A stretch of 64,000 nucleotides of DNA from Myxococcota bacterium (GTDB taxonomy: Bacteria > Myxococcota_A > UBA796 > UBA2385), in NCBI GenBank assembly GCA_044344255.1, contig JBIJDH010000008.1:212640-276639 (forward strand), given 5' to 3'. The notes beneath the pieces are model-generated. The model was not told where the DNA came from. It made no database searches and saw nothing but the letters and a program-made list of their open reading frames with translations. Shown here in pieces: positions 27,709 through 39,465 of the stretch. How positions within the stretch are numbered: position 1 is the stretch's first letter; every line of letters begins with the position of its first letter. A program made the position numbers and the translations under genes.

Positions 27709-29130
27709 GTGCCCGACTTCCGCAGCTACCTGGAGCTCTCTGAGGAGGGCGGTGGTTCCCACAAGTTCTACGAGGTCGTGATCGAGGGCACCACGCTCAC
27801 GATCCGCTACGGCCGCATCGGCGACAAGGGGCAGTCCCAGGTCAAGGCCTTCCCGAGCTTCGAGAAGGCCAAGGCAGAGGCGGACAAGAAGATCCGCGAG
27901 AAGGCGAGCAAGGGCTACGCCGCCGCGGTGCTGGGGGAGCGTAAGAAGCGCACCGTCACCCGCCGCGAGGTGGTCTCCCGCCCCTCCACCTCCCGCGCCG
28001 CCCCCGTGCTCTGGCAATTCGACTCTGGCAGCGCGGCCTTCGGCGTCTTCGTCGACGCCGGGCTCTGCTGGGTGGGCAACCAGAAGGGCAACGTCTACGC
28101 CCTCGACCACGCGGGCAAGGTCGTCTGCAATTACCAGCTCCCCGACGGCGTGAAGTGCCTCGTGGCCGACGGAGAGTGGCTCTACGCCGGCTGCGACGAC
28201 GGCAACGTCTATGACCTCACGAGCAAGGCGCCGCGGGTGGCCTACCGCATCTCCGAGAGCGTCGACATCCTCTGGATCGACATCAAGGACGGCGTGCTCG
28301 GCGTGGGCGACACCGGCGCCCAGATCAGCGTCTTCAACCACGAAGAGGAGACCTGCTGGACCCAGAAGCAGCAGGGTGGCTACGGCTGGATGGTGCGCTG
28401 CGACGAGATCGGCGTCTACTTCGGCTGCGGGGCCCGGGTGACGATGTACGACTGGCAGGACGGCCGCGTCGTCTGGGAGCACGCGCTCGGCGGCGGGGTG
28501 CTCTTCGGCTGGCAAGAAGAGAGCGCGGTCTACGCGGCCTGCGGCGACAACCTGATCTACAAGGTGTCCAAGCGCGGTGAGCGCCTCGCCACCTACCGCT
28601 GTGACGCCGGCGTCTTCTCTTGCGCCACCGCCCCCGACGGCGCCTTCGTCTTCGCCGGCGACAACAGCTCCTCGATCTACTGCTTCGACGCCGAGGGCAA
28701 GCGCCTCTGGAAGGTGGGCACGGGCGCCGGCTCGGCCCTCTCCATGCAGTTCTTCGGCGATCGGCTCTTCATCGTCACCTCCGGCGGGGCGCTCTGCTGC
28801 CTCGACGTGCGCGCCGAGGCCATCGCCGCCGCCGAGCAGGGCACCGTGCCGGTGATGCTGAAGATCGCCGCCCCCACGGCACCTGCGGTCCAGGTGAGCA
28901 CCACCGTCGAGACCACCGCCACCGCCGGCAGCGGCGTCGTGGTGGAGTGTGTCGAGGTCGGCAGCCAGCTCCGGGTGCGGCCGGTCGGCGCCGGCTTCCA
29001 CGCCGACTGGTTCGTCCAGTTCCCGAAGGACCTCCGCGTCGTCGGCGCCCGCTACGTGGTGGCGGAGCTCCGCGAGTCCAGCCGCGGCGGCTTCTACCGG
29101 GCCTTCGGCGAGATCAAGAAGCTGGGATGA
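27709..29130 (+). CDS. WGR domain + PQQ-like beta-propeller protein (first gene of the retron-linked operon)
   Basis: YLELSEEGGGSHKFYEV...IRYGRIGDKGQ...KASKGY (WGR); W-terminated blades; C-terminal VQFPKDLR..GARY....GGFYR domain. Confidence 0.87.
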   Translation: MPDFRSYLELSEEGGGSHKFYEVVIEGTTLTIRYGRIGDKGQSQVKAFPSFEKAKAEADKKIREKASKGYAAAVLGERKKRTVTRREVVSRPSTSRAAPVLWQFDSGSAAFGVFVDAGLCWVGNQKGNVYALDHAGKVVCNYQLPDGVKCLVADGEWLYAGCDDGNVYDLTSKAPRVAYRISESVDILWIDIKDGVLGVGDTGAQISVFNHEEETCWTQKQQGGYGWMVRCDEIGVYFGCGARVTMYDWQDGRVVWEHALGGGVLFGWQEESAVYAACGDNLIYKVSKRGERLATYRCDAGVFSCATAPDGAFVFAGDNSSSIYCFDAEGKRLWKVGTGAGSALSMQFFGDRLFIVTSGGALCCLDVRAEAIAAAEQGTVPVMLKIAAPTAPAVQVSTTVETTATAGSGVVVECVEVGSQLRVRPVGAGFHADWFVQFPKDLRVVGARYVVAELRESSRGGFYRAFGEIKKLG

Positions 29131-32100
29131 AGCTCCTCGACCAGCGCATCCTCGTCTGGCGGGACGGCAGCGTCGACCGCATCCACGAGGTCGACCTGCT
29201 CGAGCTCTCCCCCGGGCGGGCCGTCGTCAACTTCCGCTACGGCAAGCGGGGGGGCCCCCTCCGGGACGGCTCGAAGACCCCGATGCCCGTGCCCCTCGAG
29301 CAGGCCCGCGCCCTCTTCCTAAGAGAGATCGCCGCGAAGATCGAGAAGGGCTACGTCGAAGACACAAGCGCGGTGCCCGGCGGTGGGGCCGAGCGCCCGC
29401 CGCCTTCGACGGCCTCTCCGCCCGCCGCCGCGCCGACGCTGCGGGCCGTTCCGCCTCCCCCTCCGCCCTCGGGGGCCGGCCCCGAGGGCGCCCTGCTCCG
29501 CCGCCTCGCCGAGGGGGAGCGCCCCGCCGCGCCCGCCACCCCCGACCGCCCCGCGACCTTCCTCCGCGGCTCGGCCGGCATCGTCGCCCGCCAGCGCCGC
29601 CGCGTCCGTAAGCCCCGCCCCCTCTACCGGGTGATCGAGCGGGTGGGGGAGCTGCGCCTGGAGGCGGCGCTGCCCTACCTCTTCGACCTCCTGCCACGCG
29701 CCGACGTCCGTCTCGCCTATGTGATCGCGGGGGCCCTCGGGCGGATCGGCGGCCCGGAGGCCTCCGCGGCGCTCGTCCCCCTGCTCCAGCACGCGGACGA
29801 GCCCCTGCGCCGCCGCGCCGTCGAGGCGCTCCGCTTGCACGCCCCGCCCGAGGCGCGGGTGGGCCTCGCCGAGTCCCGCACCGACCGCCTCCCCGAGCCC
29901 CTCCGCGCCGCCGTGAAGAGCCACCGGCCCGAGCGGGTGGCCGACGAGGTCACCGCCCTGCTCGCGGAGCCCAGCCTCGAGCGGGCCATGCTGCTGGGCG
30001 AGCTCTACCTCATCGACAGCGAGGCCGTCCGCCCGGCGCTGCTCGAAGCGGCGCGCACCCTCCCCCTCCGCCCGCCCTTCCTGCGCGTGCTCCGCCACCT
30101 GTTCAAGGCCGCAGAGTACCGCCGCGATCCCGCCCTCTGGGGCACCCTCGCCTGGCGCTTCGAGACCACCCGCGCCGCCTTCCGGGTCGGCAAGCGGATC
30201 GGCAGCGGGCGCTTCGGCGAGCGGGTCGTGAACATCTCGTTGAACGGCGAGCGGAAGACCCAGGTGATGTCCCGCATCGGCGCCGCCGACAGCGCGCTCG
30301 GGTACAGCGACCGCACCCGCAAGTACCTGCGCATCCGCTGCTGGCGCCTGCTGCGCCGGCTCGGCCAGGATGGCGGCCCTGACTACGTCCGAATGGCCGT
30401 CGGCGCCCTCCTGCCCTGGACCGACGCCGACCGCGTCGAGCCCCGCGTCCAGCCCGGCCTCGAGGCCGCCCCGCCCACCTCGGGCGCGCGGGGTCGCGGG
30501 CCGATGCTCTCGGTCCCCTATCCGCTCTTCCACAGCCTCGTTCACGGCAACAGCGGGCGCTTCCTCCGCTCCAAGCGCGGCAGGATGGCCTGGCTCCCGG
30601 CCAACGCTCCGAAGACCGGCATCCCCCGCGAGGAGGCCTTCGCCGAGCTCTGGGACCGCGCCCCCGCCGGCCTCCTGCATCTCCTCGCCGAGAGCCGCTG
30701 TGAGGCGGTGCACGTCTTCGCGGTGCGGGCGCTCCAGGCGAACGCCCCCTTCGTAGACACCCTCGACAAGGGCGTGGCGCTCATGCTGCTCGAGCGGCCC
30801 TACGAGGGGACGGTGGCCCTCGGCCTCAAGGTCGCCCGGCTCCGCTGGCCCCCGCAGGGGGATCGTGACCTGCTGCTCGCCGCGGCCCACGCCGCCCACC
30901 TCCCGGCCCGCAGCCAGGCCTGGCAGTGGATGAGCCAGTCGCCACACCTGCTCGCGAACGACAGCGACGGCATCGCGACCCTCCTCTCCGGGCCTTGGAG
31001 CGACACCCGCGCCGTGGCCCGTCAGCAGCTCGACCGGATGGTGCTCGCGCCCGACCTCGCCCGGGCCCTGGTGGTCCGCCTCGTCTCGAGGCTGTTGCCC
31101 CTCCGCGGACCGGCGGCGGCGGACGTGGTCGCCGCCCTCGGGGGCCCGCTCGAATATTCATTCGTGACCGTCGGGCTGAGCGTCCTCCGCGATCTCATGG
31201 CCCACCCCGAAGAGGCTGTGCAGGCCCTGGTGGCGCGGGTGTTGGCGGCGCGGCCCGCCGATCAAGAGGCCGCCCTCGGCCTCCTCCTCCGATCCACCTT
31301 CCCGGCCATCCGCGCGACCGCCCTGTCCTGGCTCGACGGGCTCGGCGTCGAGGCGCTGCTCGCCCGCCCGGGGCTGCTGCTCGCCCTCGCCGCCAGCGCC
31401 GACCCCCTCCTCCGCGAGCGCGGCCTGCTGCTCGCCCGTTCGGCCGTCGAGAGCGGCGGGGGCGACAACGGCGGCGCCGCTGACCTCGCCCTCGCCGCGA
31501 CCGCGCTCCTGCTCGAACCGCTCCCCGCCGGGGCCCCCACCGGCCTCGTGAGCCTGCTCGAGGCCCTGCCCGACGCCGCCCTGGCGGACATCCCCGAGGA
31601 GCGGCTCCACGAGCTCCTCCGCTCCAAGCGCCCCACCGCCGTCGAGGCCGGCGGCCTCGTCCTCGGGGCCCTGCCCGCCGATCGAGCCCTCGATCCCGCG
31701 CTGTACCAGCTCGTCCACCACGAGGCCCGGCGGGTGCGCGAGGGCCTCCTCCGCGCGCTCCAGCGCCGCGCCTCCACCCTGTCGGGCGCGCTCGCCGAGC
31801 TCACCCCCCTCACCGACTGCCGTTGGCCCGAGAGCCGAGAGGGCCTGTTCGCCCTGCTGCTGCGCCTCCCCGCCGAGGCCTGGACGGTGGAGCACCTCTC
31901 CACCCTGTCCGACTCCAACCGCCCCGACGTACAGCGCTTCGCCGTGCAGATCATCCAGCGGGCCACCCCGCCCGGCCAGGAGGCGCCCCTGCTCCGCCGC
32001 CTCGCCGAGCACCCGAGCCCGCGCATCCAGTCCGTGGCCGTCAGCCTGCTCGAGGGCGTCGCCGAGGGGGCCGCCCTCATCCCCGAGCTCGAGCCCTTCT

Positions 32101-32348
32101 TTCGTGTCCTGCTCGGGCAGATTGGCCGCGCCACCGCAGCGCGCCTGCGGCTGCAGGCCTGGCTGCTCCGGGCCGCCCTCGAGGAGGAGACCGCCGCCCG
32201 CGTCGCCCTCTCGGTGCTCGGCCCCCTCTCCGCCACCACCGCCATCGAAGACCGAGCGCGCATCATCGAGGCCCTCGCGGCCCTGCGACGCCGCTGGCCC
32301 GCCCTCGAGGGCCCCCTCCGACCCATCCCCGTGGAGCTGCGCGCATGA
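29127..32348 (+). CDS. WGR-like domain + HEAT/ARM repeat protein, 1073 aa (retron-associated)
   Basis: ATGA overlap with the upstream stop; VNFRYGKRG...KIEKGY; ALGRIGG...LRRRAVEAL HEAT; RHLFKAAEYRRD, YSDRTRKYL, LLAESRCEAVHVFA. Confidence 0.85.
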   Translation: MKLLDQRILVWRDGSVDRIHEVDLLELSPGRAVVNFRYGKRGGPLRDGSKTPMPVPLEQARALFLREIAAKIEKGYVEDTSAVPGGGAERPPPSTASPPAAAPTLRAVPPPPPPSGAGPEGALLRRLAEGERPAAPATPDRPATFLRGSAGIVARQRRRVRKPRPLYRVIERVGELRLEAALPYLFDLLPRADVRLAYVIAGALGRIGGPEASAALVPLLQHADEPLRRRAVEALRLHAPPEARVGLAESRTDRLPEPLRAAVKSHRPERVADEVTALLAEPSLERAMLLGELYLIDSEAVRPALLEAARTLPLRPPFLRVLRHLFKAAEYRRDPALWGTLAWRFETTRAAFRVGKRIGSGRFGERVVNISLNGERKTQVMSRIGAADSALGYSDRTRKYLRIRCWRLLRRLGQDGGPDYVRMAVGALLPWTDADRVEPRVQPGLEAAPPTSGARGRGPMLSVPYPLFHSLVHGNSGRFLRSKRGRMAWLPANAPKTGIPREEAFAELWDRAPAGLLHLLAESRCEAVHVFAVRALQANAPFVDTLDKGVALMLLERPYEGTVALGLKVARLRWPPQGDRDLLLAAAHAAHLPARSQAWQWMSQSPHLLANDSDGIATLLSGPWSDTRAVARQQLDRMVLAPDLARALVVRLVSRLLPLRGPAAADVVAALGGPLEYSFVTVGLSVLRDLMAHPEEAVQALVARVLAARPADQEAALGLLLRSTFPAIRATALSWLDGLGVEALLARPGLLLALAASADPLLRERGLLLARSAVESGGGDNGGAADLALAATALLLEPLPAGAPTGLVSLLEALPDAALADIPEERLHELLRSKRPTAVEAGGLVLGALPADRALDPALYQLVHHEARRVREGLLRALQRRASTLSGALAELTPLTDCRWPESREGLFALLLRLPAEAWTVEHLSTLSDSNRPDVQRFAVQIIQRATPPGQEAPLLRRLAEHPSPRIQSVAVSLLEGVAEGAALIPELEPFFRVLLGQIGRATAARLRLQAWLLRAALEEETAARVALSVLGPLSATTAIEDRARIIEALAALRRRWPALEGPLRPIPVELRA

Positions 32349-33994
32349 TCGTCGAGCACGCCTATCGGGGCCGGTCCCGGGTGCTGGGCGGGGCCCGGTC
32401 CACCTCCCTCTCCTTCGCGCCCGACACGCTGCGCGAGCCCACTCGGCTCGTCGCCGAGCTTCGCCGCCCCCTGCCCTTTCGCGAGGCGATCAGCGCGCTG
32501 CACGACGTGGTGGTCTCGAACCTCCGCTTCGTCCCGAAAGACCGCACCGCCTGGCGCGCCTGGCTGGCCGAGCAGGGCGACCTCCTCGACTGGCGCGGCA
32601 TTCACAGCCAGCGCGCTCGGCTCGACGAGCGCATCCGCACCTTACAAGCCGAGCTCCAGGAGCTCAACCTGCGCCGAGAGGCCCGGGGCCGGACCTGGAA
32701 GGACGCCGAGCGAAGGTACTTCAATTATCTGTACGAGCGTGACCGAGACGCCTGGATCGTGCTCGACCCCGTGATCTCCGTGCACCCCGACGAGGTGCTC
32801 TTCGAGTGTTTCTCCGAGGACGAGAGCAGCTATGGCCGCCTGTCGGTGGTCCACGACGAGCTCGCCCGCGAGGGGGAGGTGGCCTACGGCACCACCAACA
32901 TCGACTACTCGGCGCCGCTCTATGAAGAATTCCAGAAGATCCGCTCCTACAAGCGCACCCGCCTGTCGGTAGACCCCCAGGGCCTCGGGGTGCAGCAGGG
33001 AGAGGCCGCCGCCTATCGAGAGGAGAAGATCGACCTCCCGGAGAGCTGGGTGCGCGGCTTCCTCCAGGTGAGCGCCGCGATGGGCATGGAGGCCACGGTC
33101 CTCGATCTCCAGCCGATGGACGTCCACGCGCTGCTCTTCGCGCTGCGCCGCCGGCGCGAGAAGAGGGGCCCCCGCTCGCTCCGCTTCCGCCTGCGGCCGG
33201 GGCAGCCGGTGTCGGTGGTGGTCGAGCCCTGGTTCCAGGAGCTGACCTTCCCCCGCAGCCCATACACCGGAAACGTCGAGACCGAGGTGCGCCTCTGGGG
33301 GCGGCGCCGGCTCTTCATCCTCGAGCGGCTGCTCCCCTGGGCCCGGAGCGTGCGGCTCCACCTGCTCGGCACCGGCCTCCCCTCCTTCTGGGAGGTCGAC
33401 CTCGGCGGGCTCCGCTTCACGCTCGGCCTGTCCGGCTGGACGGCGAATGACTGGTCCCGGGCCGGGCACTTTGACCTCCTCGCGCCCCGCGGGCGGGTCG
33501 ACGACAACACGGCCGTGCGCGTGATCGACGCGCTCCGCCGCGCCTGGGTCTCCGACGCCGACAGCCTCTCTCGCACCCTCGGCCTCGACCGCCCGACGGT
33601 CCTCTCCGCCCTGCTCGGCCTCGCGCAGGCCGGCCGCGCCATCCCCGATCTCGGCACCGATCGCTGGCGCGCCCGCGAGCTCACCCGCGAGCCCTTGCCG
33701 CTGGCCGCGCTGCGCTTCGCCGACCCCCGCGAGGAGCTGGCCCGCGGTCTCGTCAACAGCCGCGCCGTGAACATGCGCCGCCCCACGCTGGCCGCGGACG
33801 GCAGCCTCGAGGTGGCCGGCACCGTCCGCGGGGAGGAGCGCCTCTACACCGTGAGCCTCGTCCTCGACGCCGATCAGCGCATCACCGACGGGAGCTGCGG
33901 CTGCAGCGCCTTCACCCACAACCGGATGCGGAAGGGGCCCTGCGCCCACATCCTGGCCCTCCGGATCCGCCACGGACAGGGCGGTGTCGCGTGA
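32345..33994 (+). CDS. SWIM zinc-finger protein with a wHTH-like segment, 549 aa (retron-associated)
   Basis: ATGA overlap; LDPVISVHPD.VLFECFS.DESSYG, SWVRGFLQV, LGLSGWTANDW; C-terminal CGC...GPCAH (CxC..CxH). Confidence 0.88.
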   Translation: MIVEHAYRGRSRVLGGARSTSLSFAPDTLREPTRLVAELRRPLPFREAISALHDVVVSNLRFVPKDRTAWRAWLAEQGDLLDWRGIHSQRARLDERIRTLQAELQELNLRREARGRTWKDAERRYFNYLYERDRDAWIVLDPVISVHPDEVLFECFSEDESSYGRLSVVHDELAREGEVAYGTTNIDYSAPLYEEFQKIRSYKRTRLSVDPQGLGVQQGEAAAYREEKIDLPESWVRGFLQVSAAMGMEATVLDLQPMDVHALLFALRRRREKRGPRSLRFRLRPGQPVSVVVEPWFQELTFPRSPYTGNVETEVRLWGRRRLFILERLLPWARSVRLHLLGTGLPSFWEVDLGGLRFTLGLSGWTANDWSRAGHFDLLAPRGRVDDNTAVRVIDALRRAWVSDADSLSRTLGLDRPTVLSALLGLAQAGRAIPDLGTDRWRARELTREPLPLAALRFADPREELARGLVNSRAVNMRRPTLAADGSLEVAGTVRGEERLYTVSLVLDADQRITDGSCGCSAFTHNRMRKGPCAHILALRIRHGQGGVA

Positions 33995-34022
33995 CGCAGC
34001 CCTTCCCAAGCCCACTCCCCCA

Positions 34023-34279
34023 CGATAAGCCACCCCTGCAACCGCGGTCTCTGGCGAGCCTTGCAACCCGGCCGGCGCTTCGCCGTCCTTGCGACCCGCT
34101 TCGTCATGCGTCACTGGCCTGCTCATCACCGGGCGGGGCCACGCCCTGGTGGGGCGGATGCGGTCTGGCTTCCGAGAAGCCAGGCACGCCCCACCAGGGC
34201 CGGCCCCGCTTCAGTCGAGCGAGTCCAGTCCCGAGCCTCCTCGAAGACCCCAGAGACCGCGGTTGCACCTATCTTATCG
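34023..34279 (+). ncRNA. Retron msr-msd ncRNA
   Basis: Perfect 18-bp inverted repeat 34037-34054 / 34250-34267 plus outer 7-bp pair 34023-34029 / 34273-34279; long hairpin 34133-34209; small hairpin 34073-34085; lies directly upstream of a retron RT. Confidence 0.88.
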
Positions 34280-34301
34280 CGCCCACCCGCAGGGCCGTCC
34301 G

Positions 34302-35876
34302 ATGAGCGAGAGTGAGCGCGAGAGAGCGAGCGAGAGACCCCGCTCCCGGCAAGCGATCTACGATCACATCCGAGCCTCGTCCAAGGATGAGTTCATCCGC
34401 GAGGACATGGTGCGCCTCGGCTTCTGGCCGAGCCGCGAGCCCCGCCCGAGCGACCCCGCCGAGGAGCAGCGGCGCCGCGAGGAGATCTTGCGCGAGCTCC
34501 GCGCGCTCCAGACCGAGGGCTCCCGCCTCAAGGACGAGGCGAAGCTCAAGGCCGAGGCGCGGAAGCAGCGCATCGAGGCCAGCCGGGCCAAGCAGCAGGC
34601 GAACAAGGCCCGACGCGCCACCGATCGAGCGGCGGCCGCGGAGGCGTGGCGGGCCCGCGGCGAGTCCGAGCTGCTCTACCTCGGAGCGGGCGCCTCGGCG
34701 GGCCTCGGGCCCACCGGCACAGCGGCCACCGGCACAGCGCACCCCTCGCTCCCCGCGTTGGAGGGGCCCCTGTCGCTCGCCCGCTGGCTCGGCCTCAGCA
34801 TGGGCCAGCTCCGCTTCCTCGCCTTCCAGCGCACGGTGAGCCGGGTCTCTCACTACGCCCGCTTCCGCATCCCCAAGAAGACCGGCGGTGACCGCCTCAT
34901 CTCCGCCCCGATGCCCCGCTTGAAGGCCGTGCAGCACCGCATCGCCACGGCGCTCCTCCGCGAGGTGCCGGTGCACGAGCGCGCCCACGGCTTCGTGCCC
35001 GGCCGCTCGATCACCACCAACGCCGCCCCCCACGTGGGCGCGGCCGTCCTCGTGAACCTCGATCTCCAGGACTTCTTCCCCTCGATCCACTGGCGGCGGG
35101 TGCGGGGCGTCTTCCGAACGCTCGGGTACTCCGAGGCCGTATCGACGGTGCTGGCGCTGCTCTGCACCGAGGCCCCCGTGGAGGCCTGGGAGCTCGACGG
35201 TCAGCGCTGGTTCGTGCAGACGGGCCCACGGGCGCTGCCCCAAGGTGCGCCCACCTCCCCCGCGCTCACGAACCTCCTCTGTCGGAGCCTGGACAGACAG
35301 TGTGAGAAGCTGGGAGAGCGCCTCGGCTTCACCTACACCCGATACGCCGACGACCTCACCTTCTCCTCGACCGATCCCGAGGCCCGGGTGGGCGCCCTCC
35401 TCTATCGCCTCCGCAAGGACCTCGATCGGCACGGCCTCACCGAGCACCCCAAGAAGACCCGGGTGCTCCGACAGGGTCGGCGCATGGAGGTGACAGGCCT
35501 CATCGTCAATCACAAGCTGGCGGTTCCCCGAGAGGAGCTCCGGCGTTTCCGGGCGGTCCTCCACAAGATAGACCGCGCCGGGCCCACCGGGGCCGAGTGG
35601 CGCCCCGGGATCGAGCTCTGGGCCGGGCTCCGCGGCTTCGCTGGATACGTCTTCATGGTCGATCCCGCGCGCGGTCAGACGCTGCGAGACCGGGTCGAAG
35701 AATTGGCGGGTCGATACGAGGTGAAGGCGCCCGCGCCCGTGGTGAGGAGCGCCCCTGTCGCGGCCCCCGTGGTCGCGCCGGTGGTGACGGCGGCTCCAAC
35801 GGTCACTGCGCCCCTGCCCGAAGTCGCGCCCGCGCCGGAGCCGCCGGCGAAGAAGCCGTGGTGGAAGCTTTTCTAA
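34302..35876 (+). CDS. Retron-type reverse transcriptase, 524 aa
   Basis: IPKKTGGDRLISAP, AHGFVPGRS, NAAPH (retron region X), DLQDFFPSI, LPQGAPTSP, YTRYADDLTFS, HPKKT, VTGLIV (region Y); charged helical N-terminal extension. Confidence 0.96.
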   Translation: MSESERERASERPRSRQAIYDHIRASSKDEFIREDMVRLGFWPSREPRPSDPAEEQRRREEILRELRALQTEGSRLKDEAKLKAEARKQRIEASRAKQQANKARRATDRAAAAEAWRARGESELLYLGAGASAGLGPTGTAATGTAHPSLPALEGPLSLARWLGLSMGQLRFLAFQRTVSRVSHYARFRIPKKTGGDRLISAPMPRLKAVQHRIATALLREVPVHERAHGFVPGRSITTNAAPHVGAAVLVNLDLQDFFPSIHWRRVRGVFRTLGYSEAVSTVLALLCTEAPVEAWELDGQRWFVQTGPRALPQGAPTSPALTNLLCRSLDRQCEKLGERLGFTYTRYADDLTFSSTDPEARVGALLYRLRKDLDRHGLTEHPKKTRVLRQGRRMEVTGLIVNHKLAVPREELRRFRAVLHKIDRAGPTGAEWRPGIELWAGLRGFAGYVFMVDPARGQTLRDRVEELAGRYEVKAPAPVVRSAPVAAPVVAPVVTAAPTVTAPLPEVAPAPEPPAKKPWWKLF

Positions 35877-35891
35877 ACGAGACCGGCTTCG

Positions 35892-37973
35892 TCACTCCTC
35901 CTCGACGCAGGCCCCCGCGAGGTCCATGTTCCAACCCGCGAAGGGCCGAGCCTGCTTGATGAAGAGCTGGGGCTCCCCCGGCACGTACTTGTCGTCGAAC
36001 TTCCAGTCCACCTCGAGGGCGTACCAGTCCCCGTCGCCGCCATAGGCCTCCTGGAAGAAGCTGTGGATGGAGTCGAGCGCCACACCGAGCTCATAGGCCT
36101 CCTCGTTCGTGAGCACCGTCTCCCCCTCCGCGACGAGGGAGCTGTGCTGGATGTAGACGATCGGCTGGCCCGGATAATAGAAGTAGTGGAGATAGGCGTC
36201 GGGGAGGAGGCCGAGCTCCGGGGTGACCACGTCCTCGCCGCCCACCTGCGCGTTGACATAGAAGGCAGGCTCGAGGCCGGAGGTGTCATAGGGGTTGTTG
36301 GTCAGCGCCACCCCGTTGGACTCCTCCTCCGGGAAATTCGGGTGGACGAGGAGGCCCATCCCGACGTCGAGGTGGTTCATCGAGTAATAGTCCCGCTCCT
36401 CATAGGCGCGGGGGTTCCAGACTTGGGACCACACCTTCTTCACCGCCCACTCGATGGAGTCCGAGCCGTCGCCTGCGATGTCGGGGTCACCCGTCTCGGA
36501 ATTGTAGAGGCCGGCGCCGGTGAAGGCACCGAGGTCCTCTGAGTTTGTGCTGGAGCGGAAGCGGGCGTCCTCCCCCGGAAACATCTCCACGGCCTTGGCG
36601 CGGATGAGCTCGACCACCTCGGGGCGCATCGGCATGTCGCGGAGCTCGTCCTTGAAGTCCTCAAGGGCCTGGGTGCGATAATCGGGATCGGCCCACTCCG
36701 GGGAGGCCATCATCTCTTCGATGTGCACCCACAGCCCGTTGTCGGTCATGAACTGGTCGTAGTAGTACATCGGGATGGCGAAGCCCGGCTGCACCGGGAT
36801 GGGCGACCCGAGCGCGGCGGCGTCCTCCAGGGCGCCATAGTTGGTGGCCTTGGCCCCGAAGATCGGGATGGCGCCCGAGATCGCCTCGCCGAGCGGGAGG
36901 GCGTCGAGGTCGAGGATGTCGACGTTGTCGCGCAGGTCGGTGACGCTGAGGTCCATCGGCTGCACGACGAGGGGCTCGGGGCGGTGGTCCAACCACCAGG
37001 CCTCAGCCTCCTCGGCGCTGATCTCCTTGATCTCCCAGTCGAAGGCGCCCACGGTGAGCTCGACCCACTTGCCCTCGAGGGCCTGGAGCTCCGCCGCCGC
37101 CTGTGCGTCTCTCAGGGCCATGTTGGGCGTGCCCCGGTTGACGGACAGCACGTTGATGTGGGCGAGCGGCGTCTGGAACTGGGCGGTGATGATGCCGGCG
37201 ACGATCGAGATGTCATTCGGGACCGCGTCGAGGACCACGACCTCCCGATAGGGCGTATAGCTGCCGTCCACCTCTTCGGCGGTGCGGAAGGAGAGGATGC
37301 CGGTGGTGGTGCCGAGGTTGAGCGGCTGATAATCCACTCCGGCGTAGAGCTCATCGGTGGAGACGAGCTTAACGTCGGCGGGGAGGTCGAGGGCCATCCG
37401 CTCCACCGCCTCGCTCGTGGGGTGGAAGCGCAGCTCCTCGCCCATCCAGGCGCTCGCGGCCACCCGGCGATAGGCCGCGGCGACCATGTCGGCGCTCGCG
37501 GTGTCATAGGGGGATATCTCATAGACCCACAGCCCCGGCCCCTCGTAGCGGGAGACGGCGCCGAGGAGGAAGCGACGGTCCGGGCTGTAATACTCGGTGG
37601 TGTTGAAGGTTCCGAGGTCGGGGACGATGGGGAGGCCGTCCCCCGAGAGGTGGGTCGAGCAGAAATCCCAGTGGACACAGTACCGTTTCGAGTTCTGAAA
37701 ATAGAGCGCGTCTCCGTCCAGGCGATCGATGACGGTCTTGACCGAGGTGGCGCCGGGGATGCTCGAGTCTGCGGGCTCGCTCGACAGGGCGAGGTAGTCT
37801 GCCTCACAGCCGAGCTGCTGGGCGAAGTCGGGATCGGCGCCCTCGGGGATGAGGCAGTCCCAGCCCGGGACGGCGCTGTCATCGGCGGGGGTGGAGCCGC
37901 CGCCCTTCGGGCCGGGCGGATCATCCCCACACGCAGAGACAGACAGCACAACCAGGATCGCGAGACGAGTCAT
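35892..37973 (-). CDS. Lipoprotein with PEP/pyruvate-binding (PPDK_N, ATP-grasp) domain
   Basis: MTRLAILVVLSVSAC lipobox; FGAKATNYG, GFAIP, RFRSSTNSEDL..FTGAGLY, VKKVWSQ, EVDWK, IKQARP. Confidence 0.83.
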   Translation of the reverse strand: MTRLAILVVLSVSACGDDPPGPKGGGSTPADDSAVPGWDCLIPEGADPDFAQQLGCEADYLALSSEPADSSIPGATSVKTVIDRLDGDALYFQNSKRYCVHWDFCSTHLSGDGLPIVPDLGTFNTTEYYSPDRRFLLGAVSRYEGPGLWVYEISPYDTASADMVAAAYRRVAASAWMGEELRFHPTSEAVERMALDLPADVKLVSTDELYAGVDYQPLNLGTTTGILSFRTAEEVDGSYTPYREVVVLDAVPNDISIVAGIITAQFQTPLAHINVLSVNRGTPNMALRDAQAAAELQALEGKWVELTVGAFDWEIKEISAEEAEAWWLDHRPEPLVVQPMDLSVTDLRDNVDILDLDALPLGEAISGAIPIFGAKATNYGALEDAAALGSPIPVQPGFAIPMYYYDQFMTDNGLWVHIEEMMASPEWADPDYRTQALEDFKDELRDMPMRPEVVELIRAKAVEMFPGEDARFRSSTNSEDLGAFTGAGLYNSETGDPDIAGDGSDSIEWAVKKVWSQVWNPRAYEERDYYSMNHLDVGMGLLVHPNFPEEESNGVALTNNPYDTSGLEPAFYVNAQVGGEDVVTPELGLLPDAYLHYFYYPGQPIVYIQHSSLVAEGETVLTNEEAYELGVALDSIHSFFQEAYGGDGDWYALEVDWKFDDKYVPGEPQLFIKQARPFAGWNMDLAGACVEEE

Positions 37974-38139
37974 CCACACCTCGACCCCGGGCGAACGGAC
38001 CAGGGCTCCGCTCCCAGTATGCCCCGGCAGGACCCAATATGCCTTGGCAGGCCGCCGCCCGAGCGCGATTTGAGGCCCCCGCGGCGACCTCGCGCGCCCC
38101 GGCTGGTTACCGGGCCGGCGCACGCCCCCGGGAGACCCG

Positions 38140-39465
38140 ATGTCCATCGCCCCCATCGACTGCGACCTGATCGTCCTCGGGCTGGGCACCGCCGGGGCGA
38201 TGGCGGCCTTCGCCGGGGCCCGCGCCGGGCTCCGCGTGCGGGCCTTCGAGCGGCGGCCCCTCGAGTCGGCAGGCGCCCGCTGGGTGAACGCGCTGCCAGC
38301 CGCCTCTTTCGACGAGGCCCGCCTCCCGCGCCCCGAGGCGCCCGAGCTCCGCGCCCTCGGCCACCGCTTCCACATGAAGGCCGGCTGGACGGGCCCCTCC
38401 CTGCCCCTCTCCGCCGATGGGCTGCTGGAGGTCGACATGCGGCTGCTGGTCGCCCGCCTCCATCACCTCGCCGTCGAAGCGGGGGCCCACCTCGCAGGCG
38501 GCGCGACGATCGAGGGCTGGCGCGTCGAGGAGGGCGCGGTCACGATCGACAGCCCCGAAGGGTCCATCCGAGGCCGCTTCCTCGTCGACGCGCGGGGCAT
38601 GGTGCACGGAGAGGGGGCCGTCCCCCGGGAGCTCATCTGCGCGGCCGCCCATGAGATCCGCGCCCTGACCGACCGGGCCCGCGCCGAGGCCTGGTTCCGC
38701 AGCCACGGCGTCACCCCGGGGGAGACCCTCTGCTTCACCGGCGTCGAAGGTGGCTTCTCCGTGCTCAATGTCCGCCTGGAGCTGGACACCGCGGAGGCCC
38801 TCGTGGGCGCGGGATCCATCTCGATCCTCACGGGCTCGATCCCCGGCCAGGGCCACCCCTCGGGCCGCCAGATGCTCGACCGCTTCGTGGCCGAGCACAA
38901 GGACTGGATAGGCCCCCTCCACTTCGGCGGGGCCCGACCGATCCCGCTCGGCCTGCCCCAGGCCTGCCTCGCCGAGGGGCCGGTGGCCCGCATCGGCGAC
39001 GCCGCAGGGCAGGTCTTCGCGATGCACGGCTCCGGCATCGGCGCCGGGCTCGTCGCCGCTGAGCTCCTCGCCACCACGCTCGCCCGCGGTGGTAGCCCCT
39101 GGGACTACAACGTCGCCTGGCAGCGCCGATACGGCGGCCTCTTCGCCGGCTCGGCCGTCTTCGCCGCCTGGAGCCGGGCCCTCCGCCCCGAAGACCTCGC
39201 GCGGCTCTTCGAGGCGGGCCTGATGAACCCCCACCTCGCGCGGATGGGGCTCCTCCAGCAGCCCGCCCGCCCGCGGCCGGCCGATCTCCCCGGCCTCGCC
39301 TTCGGCCTGCTGCGGGCCCCCGGGACCGCGGCGCGCCTCGCCCCCGCCCTGTTGGCGATGGAGCGACTCAACCTGCACGCCGGACGCTATCCGGGCGACC
39401 CCGCCGCGCTCCCGGCCTGGTCCGCCGCACGCGACCGCATCGCGGGCCTGCCAGCACAGGGATAG
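38140..39465 (+). CDS. FAD-dependent oxidoreductase (geranylgeranyl reductase-like)
   Basis: VLGLGTAGAMAA...FERR, VDARG, IGDAAGQV...HGSGIG. Confidence 0.85.
   Translation: MSIAPIDCDLIVLGLGTAGAMAAFAGARAGLRVRAFERRPLESAGARWVNALPAASFDEARLPRPEAPELRALGHRFHMKAGWTGPSLPLSADGLLEVDMRLLVARLHHLAVEAGAHLAGGATIEGWRVEEGAVTIDSPEGSIRGRFLVDARGMVHGEGAVPRELICAAAHEIRALTDRARAEAWFRSHGVTPGETLCFTGVEGGFSVLNVRLELDTAEALVGAGSISILTGSIPGQGHPSGRQMLDRFVAEHKDWIGPLHFGGARPIPLGLPQACLAEGPVARIGDAAGQVFAMHGSGIGAGLVAAELLATTLARGGSPWDYNVAWQRRYGGLFAGSAVFAAWSRALRPEDLARLFEAGLMNPHLARMGLLQQPARPRPADLPGLAFGLLRAPGTAARLAPALLAMERLNLHAGRYPGDPAALPAWSAARDRIAGLPAQG

What the first reader, a model, noticed from the sequence alone, without database searches (positions are those of the whole stretch)
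34023..34279. msr-msd ncRNA structure readable directly from the sequence
Seen: TGCAACCGCGGTCTCTGG (34037-34054) is the exact reverse complement of CCAGAGACCGCGGTTGCA (34250-34267), extended by CGATAAG/CTTATCG. A nested hairpin is formed by 34133-34140/34202-34209 (8 bp), 34143-34156/34187-34200 (14 bp) and 34165-34172/34176-34183 (8 bp, CGA loop), possibly extended by ACTGG/CCAGT (34113-34117/34225-34229). A small CGGCG-CTT-CGCCG hairpin sits at 34073-34085. Inference: msr is about 34055-34110, the branching G is 34056 or 34058, and the msDNA is roughly 130-160 nt. The retron could also be a candidate ssDNA-production tool for high-GC hosts.
Basis: partly seen in the sequence, partly recalled or inferred. 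Interest (0 to 1): 0.85.

Follow-up and report, generated by a model that had tools for sequence, protein, structure and literature searches.

The report
Template RNA of type XIII retron

Summary
The RNA lies between the SWIM and RT genes of a type XIII retron operon (PADLOC RT_XIII 551, SWIM_XIII 694, WGR_XIII 695 bits). Homologues precede the RT in 36 of 80 related loci, and 32 of 42 pairs covary. RNA contigs identical to the window, from four studies, lie inside 34036-34261. Correction: G34063 is kept in 39 of 39 aligned RNAs, G34056 and G34058 in 16 of 39 each, so priming is likely at G34063, copying from C34242, about 138 nt. Type XIII is published and already tested as a tool. The scan met this operon before on other DNA (e1-7730435, e1-7730430). 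Side leads: the SWIM protein model has a PCNA-like fold (Z 15.1); one related genome carries 16 RT-less copies of this RNA, nine with long, mutually unrelated hairpins, plus an RT operon without an RNA. Verdict: real, new member of a known kind.

The parts
27709..29130 (+). WGR + beta-propeller gene, first in the operon; optional extra partner
   Evidence: Pfam WGR and propeller hits; no PADLOC hit; full-length homologue near the RT in 6 of 36 RNA-bearing loci and 4 of 9; no RT, SWIM or RNA in 18 of 18 metagenome loci fetched with it, most of them short
29127..32348 (+). WGR-like + HEAT/ARM protein (type XIII accessory, cluster 216-like)
   Evidence: PADLOC WGR_XIII 695 bits; Pfam HEAT_2
32345..33994 (+). 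SWIM zinc-finger protein (type XIII cluster 114-like); model shows a PCNA-like fold at residues 34-368, then a winged helix-like part and SWIM
   Evidence: PADLOC SWIM_XIII 694 bits; CxCx12CxH at 518; model pLDDT 78.8; Foldseek E 2e-7; VIA-align Z 15.1, rmsd 3.0, 217 aligned
34023..34029 (+). outer 7-bp arm pairing with 34273-34279; possible extension of a1/a2
   Evidence: exact; homologues often pair this far out, median reach 43 nt upstream of the G; not covered together with the RNA by any RNA contig
34037..34054 (+). a1 arm (18 bp with a2)
   Evidence: exact; own a2 is the best partner in 32 of 39 RNAs, mean -36.5 against -17.7 kcal/mol for swapped arms
34060..34064 (+). CTT-G-C priming site; G34063 is the likely branching G; CTT pairs with AAG 34244-34246
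   Evidence: all five bases 39 of 39; pairs -1/+1, -2/+2, -3/+3 in 39, 36, 39 of 39; changed but paired in L036 and L031
34070..34088 (+). msr stem-loop, 8 bp with one mismatch
   Evidence: 99% of cells paired, 4 of 8 pairs change on both sides
34105..34112 (+). conserved block just before the msd hairpin; likely msr/msDNA 3' overlap and stop of reverse transcription
   Evidence: C34109 and C34112 39 of 39; role inferred from known retrons
34113..34229 (+). msd hairpin (nested stems)
   Evidence: exact arms; five helices, 88-96% of cells paired, 13 of 13 pairs of the main stem change on both sides
34105..34242 (-). predicted msDNA, about 138 nt, first base G (complement of C34242); 3' end uncertain by about 5 nt
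   Evidence: length 132-145 nt in 39 RNAs by the same anchors; folds as one DNA hairpin, -53.1 kcal/mol
34250..34267 (+). a2 arm
   Evidence: exact
34302..35876 (+). retron reverse transcriptase, clade 10 / type XIII, 524 aa, extended N-terminus
   Evidence: PADLOC RT_XIII 551 bits, next family 312; NAAPH 240, YADD 348, VTG 397; single copy in the genome

Best explanation
The stretch is the msr-msd RNA of a type XIII retron, which the adjacent reverse transcriptase likely copies, primed by the 2'-OH of G34063, into a branched single-stranded DNA hairpin of about 138 nt that likely controls the SWIM and WGR-HEAT partner proteins in anti-phage defence. Shown: the fold, its covariation, the operon, the RT motifs, and RNA-library contigs confined to the RNA. 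Inferred from known retrons: a1/a2 pairing plus CTT/AAG puts G34063 opposite G34243; copying starts at C34242, runs through the hairpin and stops near 34105; RNase H leaves the msr with a short 3' overlap. Inferred and untested: RT, msr and msDNA bind the clamp-fold SWIM protein and the WGR-HEAT scaffold and hold them in check until phage activity disturbs the msDNA, which triggers growth arrest. Odds by step: retron RNA 0.97; makes msDNA 0.9; branch at G34063 0.85; defence role 0.6.
For: Exact arms and z -8.3. PADLOC RT_XIII, SWIM_XIII, WGR_XIII in one operon; NAxxH, YADD, VTG. 38 homologous RNAs in 36 of 80 RT loci, record titles spanning Myxococcota, Acidobacteriota, cyanobacteria, Bacteroidota, Proteobacteria and others. 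32 of 42 pairs change on both sides; 93% of cells paired against 35-42% for slid controls. Arm-swap test 32 of 39. G34063 39 of 39. In divergent L036 the same position reads TTAG-C with five consecutive pairs and A-T at -1/+1; in L031, read by hand one base off the model's alignment, C-G at -1/+1 with five pairs. The census paper reports the branch G often follows TTA and the first copied base is mostly G (passage), as predicted here. RNA contigs with no differences: 34049-34261, 34036-34220, 34076-34226, 34076-34235, four studies, while DNA contigs run on into both genes. Patchy spread, 5 of 41 relatives and 8 of 151 phylum genomes, fits a defence system. Clade 10 is among the best RT-DNA producers (passage).
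Against: No msDNA was observed. The minimum-energy fold pairs G34063 with 34089-92; forcing the priming register costs 5.4 kcal/mol. G34058 lies in GAGC, the published priming context of Mx65. The 39-of-39 count is partly circular: the 17 seed RNAs were picked by this motif and the 9 hold-outs were anchored on it. L034 gives no clean register. One of five near-identical RNA contigs lies outside the RNA (33876-34031), and contigs show neither strand nor ends. No known toxic domain was found in the partners; 9 of 36 RNA-bearing loci lack the SWIM gene in the DNA held. Mestre 2020 suggests vertically inherited retrons such as type XIII may have non-defence roles (passage).
Confidence: 0.6

Rival explanations
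1. Same retron and same msDNA, but domesticated for a cellular DNA-maintenance role: the clamp-fold and WGR proteins act at DNA ends or stalled forks and the msDNA is a scaffold or decoy, not a phage alarm.
For: Clamp-like fold; two WGR domains in the operon; no nuclease or toxin family hit; GC3 0.90-0.95, like the neighbours' 0.88-0.97, so long resident; type XIII tracks host 16S moderately.
Against: Found in only 5 of 41 relatives searched and scattered across phyla; the characterised retron types in the paper listing are anti-phage systems.
Confidence: 0.25
2. One reading: priming at G34056 or G34058, msDNA starting near 34249.
For: G34058 is in GAGC, the Mx65 context; both lie next to the end of the 18-bp helix and are not blocked in the MFE fold.
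Against: Each is G in only 16 of 39 RNAs; pairing is conserved inside them, up to G34063; L036 has TTAG-C at the G34063 position.
Confidence: 0.1
3. The RNA acts as a structured RNA only and is not, or hardly, reverse transcribed in normal growth.
For: No msDNA seen here; type VI retrons are reported not to follow the usual constitutive msDNA pattern (start of abstract only).
Against: Intact RT motifs; founding type XIII members are validated msDNA producers and clade 10 yields high RT-DNA.
Confidence: 0.05

Closest known systems
Retron type XIII / RT clade 10 (Mestre et al. 2020, PMC7736814; Mx162, Mx65, Sa163, Ne144)
   Same: RT_XIII, SWIM protein with CxCx12CxH, WGR-HEAT/ARM protein upstream, a1/a2-closed RNA with msr stem-loop and long msd hairpin.
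   Different: An extra WGR-propeller gene not in that paper's Table 1 passage; priming context TTGC rather than CAGC or GAGC; the cluster-114 core models as a PCNA-like fold where the paper proposed a transposase-like DEDE motif. Which of the published RNA sub-models (Firmicutes, Ne144, Mx162, Mx65) it matches could not be tested: the supplement was unreadable.
Mestre-1710 of the retron census (PMC10849725), Comamonadaceae NML120219 = Vandammella animalimorsus
   Same: Type XIII; same species as locus L033, whose RNA is in my alignment; it has RT-DNA, bacterial, phage and human editing vectors in the table.
   Different: Its sequence and RT-DNA map were not visible (media-3.pdf too large), so identity with L033 and the measured start site are not checked.
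Dispersed msr/msd-like repeats of Nannocystis exedens (Retron-Nex1/Ne160; seen only as a passage in PMC6868368 citing Lampson and Rice 1997)
   Same: RT-less copies of a retron RNA in one genome, as in relative G002.
   Different: The window's genome has one copy. In G002 the frames are 80-85% alike but the hairpin region is unrelated between copies; the primary papers were not read.

Membership tests
Retron (general) | RT with NAxxH, YADD and VTG | tested here: met
   NAAPH 240, YADD 348, VTG 397
Retron (general) | adjacent RNA closed by a1/a2, with msr hairpin and long msd stem | tested here: met
Retron (general) | conserved unpaired G at the inner end of a1/a2 | tested here: met
   G34063 39 of 39, facing G34243; paired changes next to it in L036 and L031; count partly circular
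Retron (general) | produces 2'-5' branched msDNA | not testable with these tools
   needs expression, gel and debranching
Retron type XIII | RT of clade 10 | tested here: met
   RT_XIII 551 bits over 4-433 of 469; best other family 312
Retron type XIII | linked cluster-114 protein with C-terminal CxCx12CxH SWIM finger | tested here: met
   SWIM_XIII 694 bits; motif at 518
Retron type XIII | Dx7[D]x4Ex30-32Dx37E motif in the cluster-114 protein | tested here: inconclusive
   strict pattern finds nothing; invariant D141, D149, E154, D187, E226 fit with the last gap 38, not 37
Retron type XIII | WGR/HEAT-ARM accessory gene before the SWIM gene | tested here: met
   WGR_XIII 695 bits, 1-971 of 973
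Retron type XIII | match to a published type XIII RNA covariance model | not testable with these tools
   models not held; no Rfam family reaches its cut-off; supplement unreadable
Anti-phage retron | phage protection needing RNA, RT and effector | not testable with these tools
   no experiment possible; no type XIII defence test seen in searches
PCNA / DNA sliding clamp (SWIM protein) | two-domain clamp fold | tested here: met
   Z 15.1, rmsd 3.0, 217 of 248 residues, 9% identity, on a predicted model
PCNA / DNA sliding clamp (SWIM protein) | closed ring around duplex DNA | not tested

The most novel reading that the evidence does not exclude
This RNA is a reusable cassette: a fixed priming frame that accepts different hairpin inserts. 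In relative G002 it has spread into at least 16 stand-alone copies, nine of them full-length with mutually unrelated 23-41-bp perfect stems, while an intact type XIII operon of the same RT subclade has no RNA of its own. That RT would read the dispersed cassettes in trans and give a clamp-fold partner a repertoire of different DNA duplexes: a multi-template, possibly adaptive, retron.
Probability: 0.12. Interest if true: 0.8.

Novelty: new member of a known kind. Interest (0 to 1): 0.3.

Why it matters
The locus itself adds one more member to a published class. Its use is practical: exact priming and template coordinates, a 39-sequence covariance model, and RNA-level support make this sub-family easy to express and test. 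Type XIII includes the founding myxobacterial retrons, yet my searches showed no test of its function; the clamp-like fold gives a concrete hypothesis. If the G002 array is real and active, one RT serving many hairpin templates would be a new retron layout and a natural multiplex single-stranded-DNA source.

Tried and rejected
Rfam: 13 weak matches, none near a gathering score, mostly microRNA hairpins; rejected. Sigma-70 promoter and terminator scan of 33700-34400: none. I considered the outer 7-bp arm to be promoter DNA rather than RNA; homologues often pair as far out, so this stays open. The RNA motif was not found in IMG/VR; in plasmids one partial match, Methylobacterium. Sources of the G002 hairpin inserts: 7 of 9 searched in G002 (four of them also in three other genomes): only their own loci, two further partial copies of the same cassette and short matches that I take as chance (best E 6e-4); 2 exact 21-mers absent from IMG/VR; 1 insert gave only a 21-nt match at E 0.2 in phage records. 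So no support for phage-derived or self-derived spacers. The propeller gene as a fixed retron part: rejected, 0 of 18 loci fetched with it hold RT, SWIM or RNA, 1 of 18 the WGR-HEAT gene; only 5 are longer than 9 kb. Ring formation by the clamp-fold domain: tool not available, untested. The measured RT-DNA of type XIII census retrons could not be read. In one search L005 was anchored 11 nt early; it was left in the count. The tree is the quick version, SH-aLRT only. The 4e-6 containment figure is post hoc and leaves out the fifth contig; it is not used as a test.

Full report
Observation. All six arm pairs and the small hairpin are exact at the coordinates given. The 18-bp pair is the longest short-range perfect inverted repeat in the window, and 34023-34279 folds at -149.7 kcal/mol, z -8.3, below all 200 shuffles. 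No Rfam family reaches its cut-off.

Setting. The RNA fills the gap between a SWIM gene (stop 33994) and an RT (start 34302). Upstream, three genes overlap stop-to-start: WGR-propeller (27709-29130), WGR-HEAT (29127-32348), SWIM (32345-33994). PADLOC gives RT_XIII 551 bits, SWIM_XIII 694, WGR_XIII 695, and nothing for the propeller gene. The RT has NAAPH, YADD and VTG. The genome holds one such RT and one such RNA. This is the layout of type XIII in Mestre et al. 2020 (PMC7736814; I read search passages only; its supplement was unreadable). The host is likely a myxobacterium, by inference from neighbours in the tree; its name is not given.

Conservation. The RT fetched 80 genome loci. A profile seeded with 17 RNAs found the RNA at 50 bits or more in 36 of them, twice in L002 and L003; with the window that makes 39. 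The other 44 loci are mostly more distant RTs. In the alignment 32 of 42 predicted pairs change on both sides; 93% of cells pair, against 71% for shuffles and 35-42% for slid partners. The a1/a2 arms share little sequence, so I tested them by swapping: own pairs average -36.5 kcal/mol, swapped -17.7, and the own partner is best or tied in 32 of 39 (one row mis-anchored). The SWIM gene is present in 27 of these 36 loci.

Branch point. G34056 and G34058 are G in 16 of 39 rows each. CTTGC at 34060-64 is invariant, CTT pairs with AAG at 34244-46 (39, 36 and 39 of 39), and G34063 faces G34243 in all. That is the usual retron geometry: the census paper says the branch G often follows TTA and the first copied base is mostly G (PMC10849725, passages); here copying would start at C34242 and give G. 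The count is partly circular because seeds were chosen by this motif, and the 9 hold-out RNAs were anchored on it (all 9 have it 175-186 nt before the matching C). The independent check is in divergent homologues outside the seed: L036 reads TTAG-C at this position with five consecutive pairs and A-T at -1/+1; L031 gives C-G there with five pairs if read one base off the model's alignment; L034 is unclear. Against: G34058 lies in GAGC, the Mx65 context (PMC6868368, passage), and the priming register is 5.4 kcal/mol above the MFE. I put G34063 at 0.85. The msDNA would run from 34242 to about 34105, 138 nt (132-145 in homologues); the stop point is inferred from the conserved block before the hairpin.

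Expression. Six RNA runs held part of 33700-34700; I laid five. Four, from four studies, have contigs with no differences at 34049-34261, 34036-34220, 34076-34226 and 34076-34235; the fifth has one at 33876-34031 and a diverged homologous RNA. Three DNA runs cross the RNA into both genes. Contigs show no strand, ends or level, and DNA can sit in RNA libraries, so this is support for a discrete abundant species, not proof.

Mechanism. Steps shown: fold, operon, motifs. Inferred from known retrons: priming, copying, RNase H trimming. Inferred and untested: control of the partners. The SWIM protein model (123 sequences, pLDDT 78.8) matches PCNA and other clamps over residues 34-368 (Foldseek E 2e-7; Z 15.1, rmsd 3.0, 217 aligned). 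An earlier scan note (e1-7730430) had reported this; my calls reproduce it. The invariant acidic residues that Mestre et al. read as a transposase-like motif fall inside this fold. A shared fold shows no function, and ring formation is untested. I favour defence (0.6) because the RNA is patchy, 5 of 41 relatives and 8 of 151 phylum genomes, and spread across phyla; a DNA-maintenance role is the main rival (0.25). I saw no experimental test of type XIII function in searches (3 papers; 5; 20 of 113 listed; 3, unrelated), and none of the 12 of 781 papers listed mentions retrons; these are listings of an open-access library only.

Tool value. Clade 10 is among the best RT-DNA producers. The census table lists 17 type XIII entries, among them Mestre-1710, from the same species as L033, with editing vectors (section 7 read in full). 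Its data file could not be read. The window's retron is a reasonable but ordinary candidate.

Side lead. Relative G002 has 17 matches to my model (150 of about 3,900 candidates scored). One sits before an RT. Nine others are full-length, keep the priming site, msr stem and a1/a2 pairing, and carry perfect stems of 23-41 bp; their frames are 85% and 80% alike, their variable parts 51% against 47% for shuffles. The remaining seven are partial, low-complexity or gapped. The nine lie among unrelated genes, two beside YhgA-like transposase genes, on contigs with no RT_XIII match. An intact RT operon on C47, inside the same RT subclade (SH-aLRT 96), has no RNA between SWIM and RT. No source for the inserts was found, two stems recur in partial sister copies, and no other of the 11 positive genomes has more than one copy. 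The plain reading is a repeat family spread in one lineage, with a precedent in Nannocystis exedens (review passage; primary papers not read); G002 is a 560-contig assembly. Searches showed no paper on such variable-hairpin copies.

Verdict. Real, well supported, new member of a known kind; branch G corrected. Interest 0.3, mostly for the testable coordinates and the side leads.

Noticed in passing
G002, loci L111-L126 and L157 (C47:28345-29730): At least 16 RT-less copies of this RNA in one related genome, nine full-length with unrelated 23-41-bp perfect hairpins and predicted msDNAs of about 190-200 nt, plus an intact type XIII operon with no RNA between SWIM and RT.
   Followed up: partly
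L002 8457-8917; L003 8474-8913: Two Acidobacteriota loci carry two tandem RNAs (74% and 82% alike) before a single RT.
   Followed up: partly
window 32345-33994: SWIM partner models as a PCNA-like clamp fold with a long helical insertion (about residues 45-132).
   Followed up: partly
window 27709-29130: WGR-propeller gene: in the operon here and in 4 of 9 related genomes, convergent behind the RT in several cyanobacteria, but also common without the retron.
   Followed up: yes
L005, L020, L033: RNA plus RT with no SWIM or WGR-HEAT gene in 9 kb upstream: stand-alone cassettes of this family.
   Followed up: no
L007, L011, L024, L025, L042, L043: In Pseudanabaena and Tumidithrix the WGR-HEAT gene is inverted relative to the RT and the SWIM gene is displaced or outside the DNA held.
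   Followed up: no
L158 (G002:C194) and L168 (G025:C30): A separate RT_XIII branch with a SWIM gene nearby, no match to this RNA, and one stop inside the profile match.
   Followed up: no
L163 14118-15098: A second RT on the opposite strand just behind the retron RT in G140.
   Followed up: no
L035, L039: Nostoc RTs inside the same subclade with no match to this RNA.
   Followed up: no
window 35892-38438 (-): Gene with a PPDK_N (PEP/pyruvate-binding) domain, convergent with the RT; seems unrelated to the retron.
   Followed up: no
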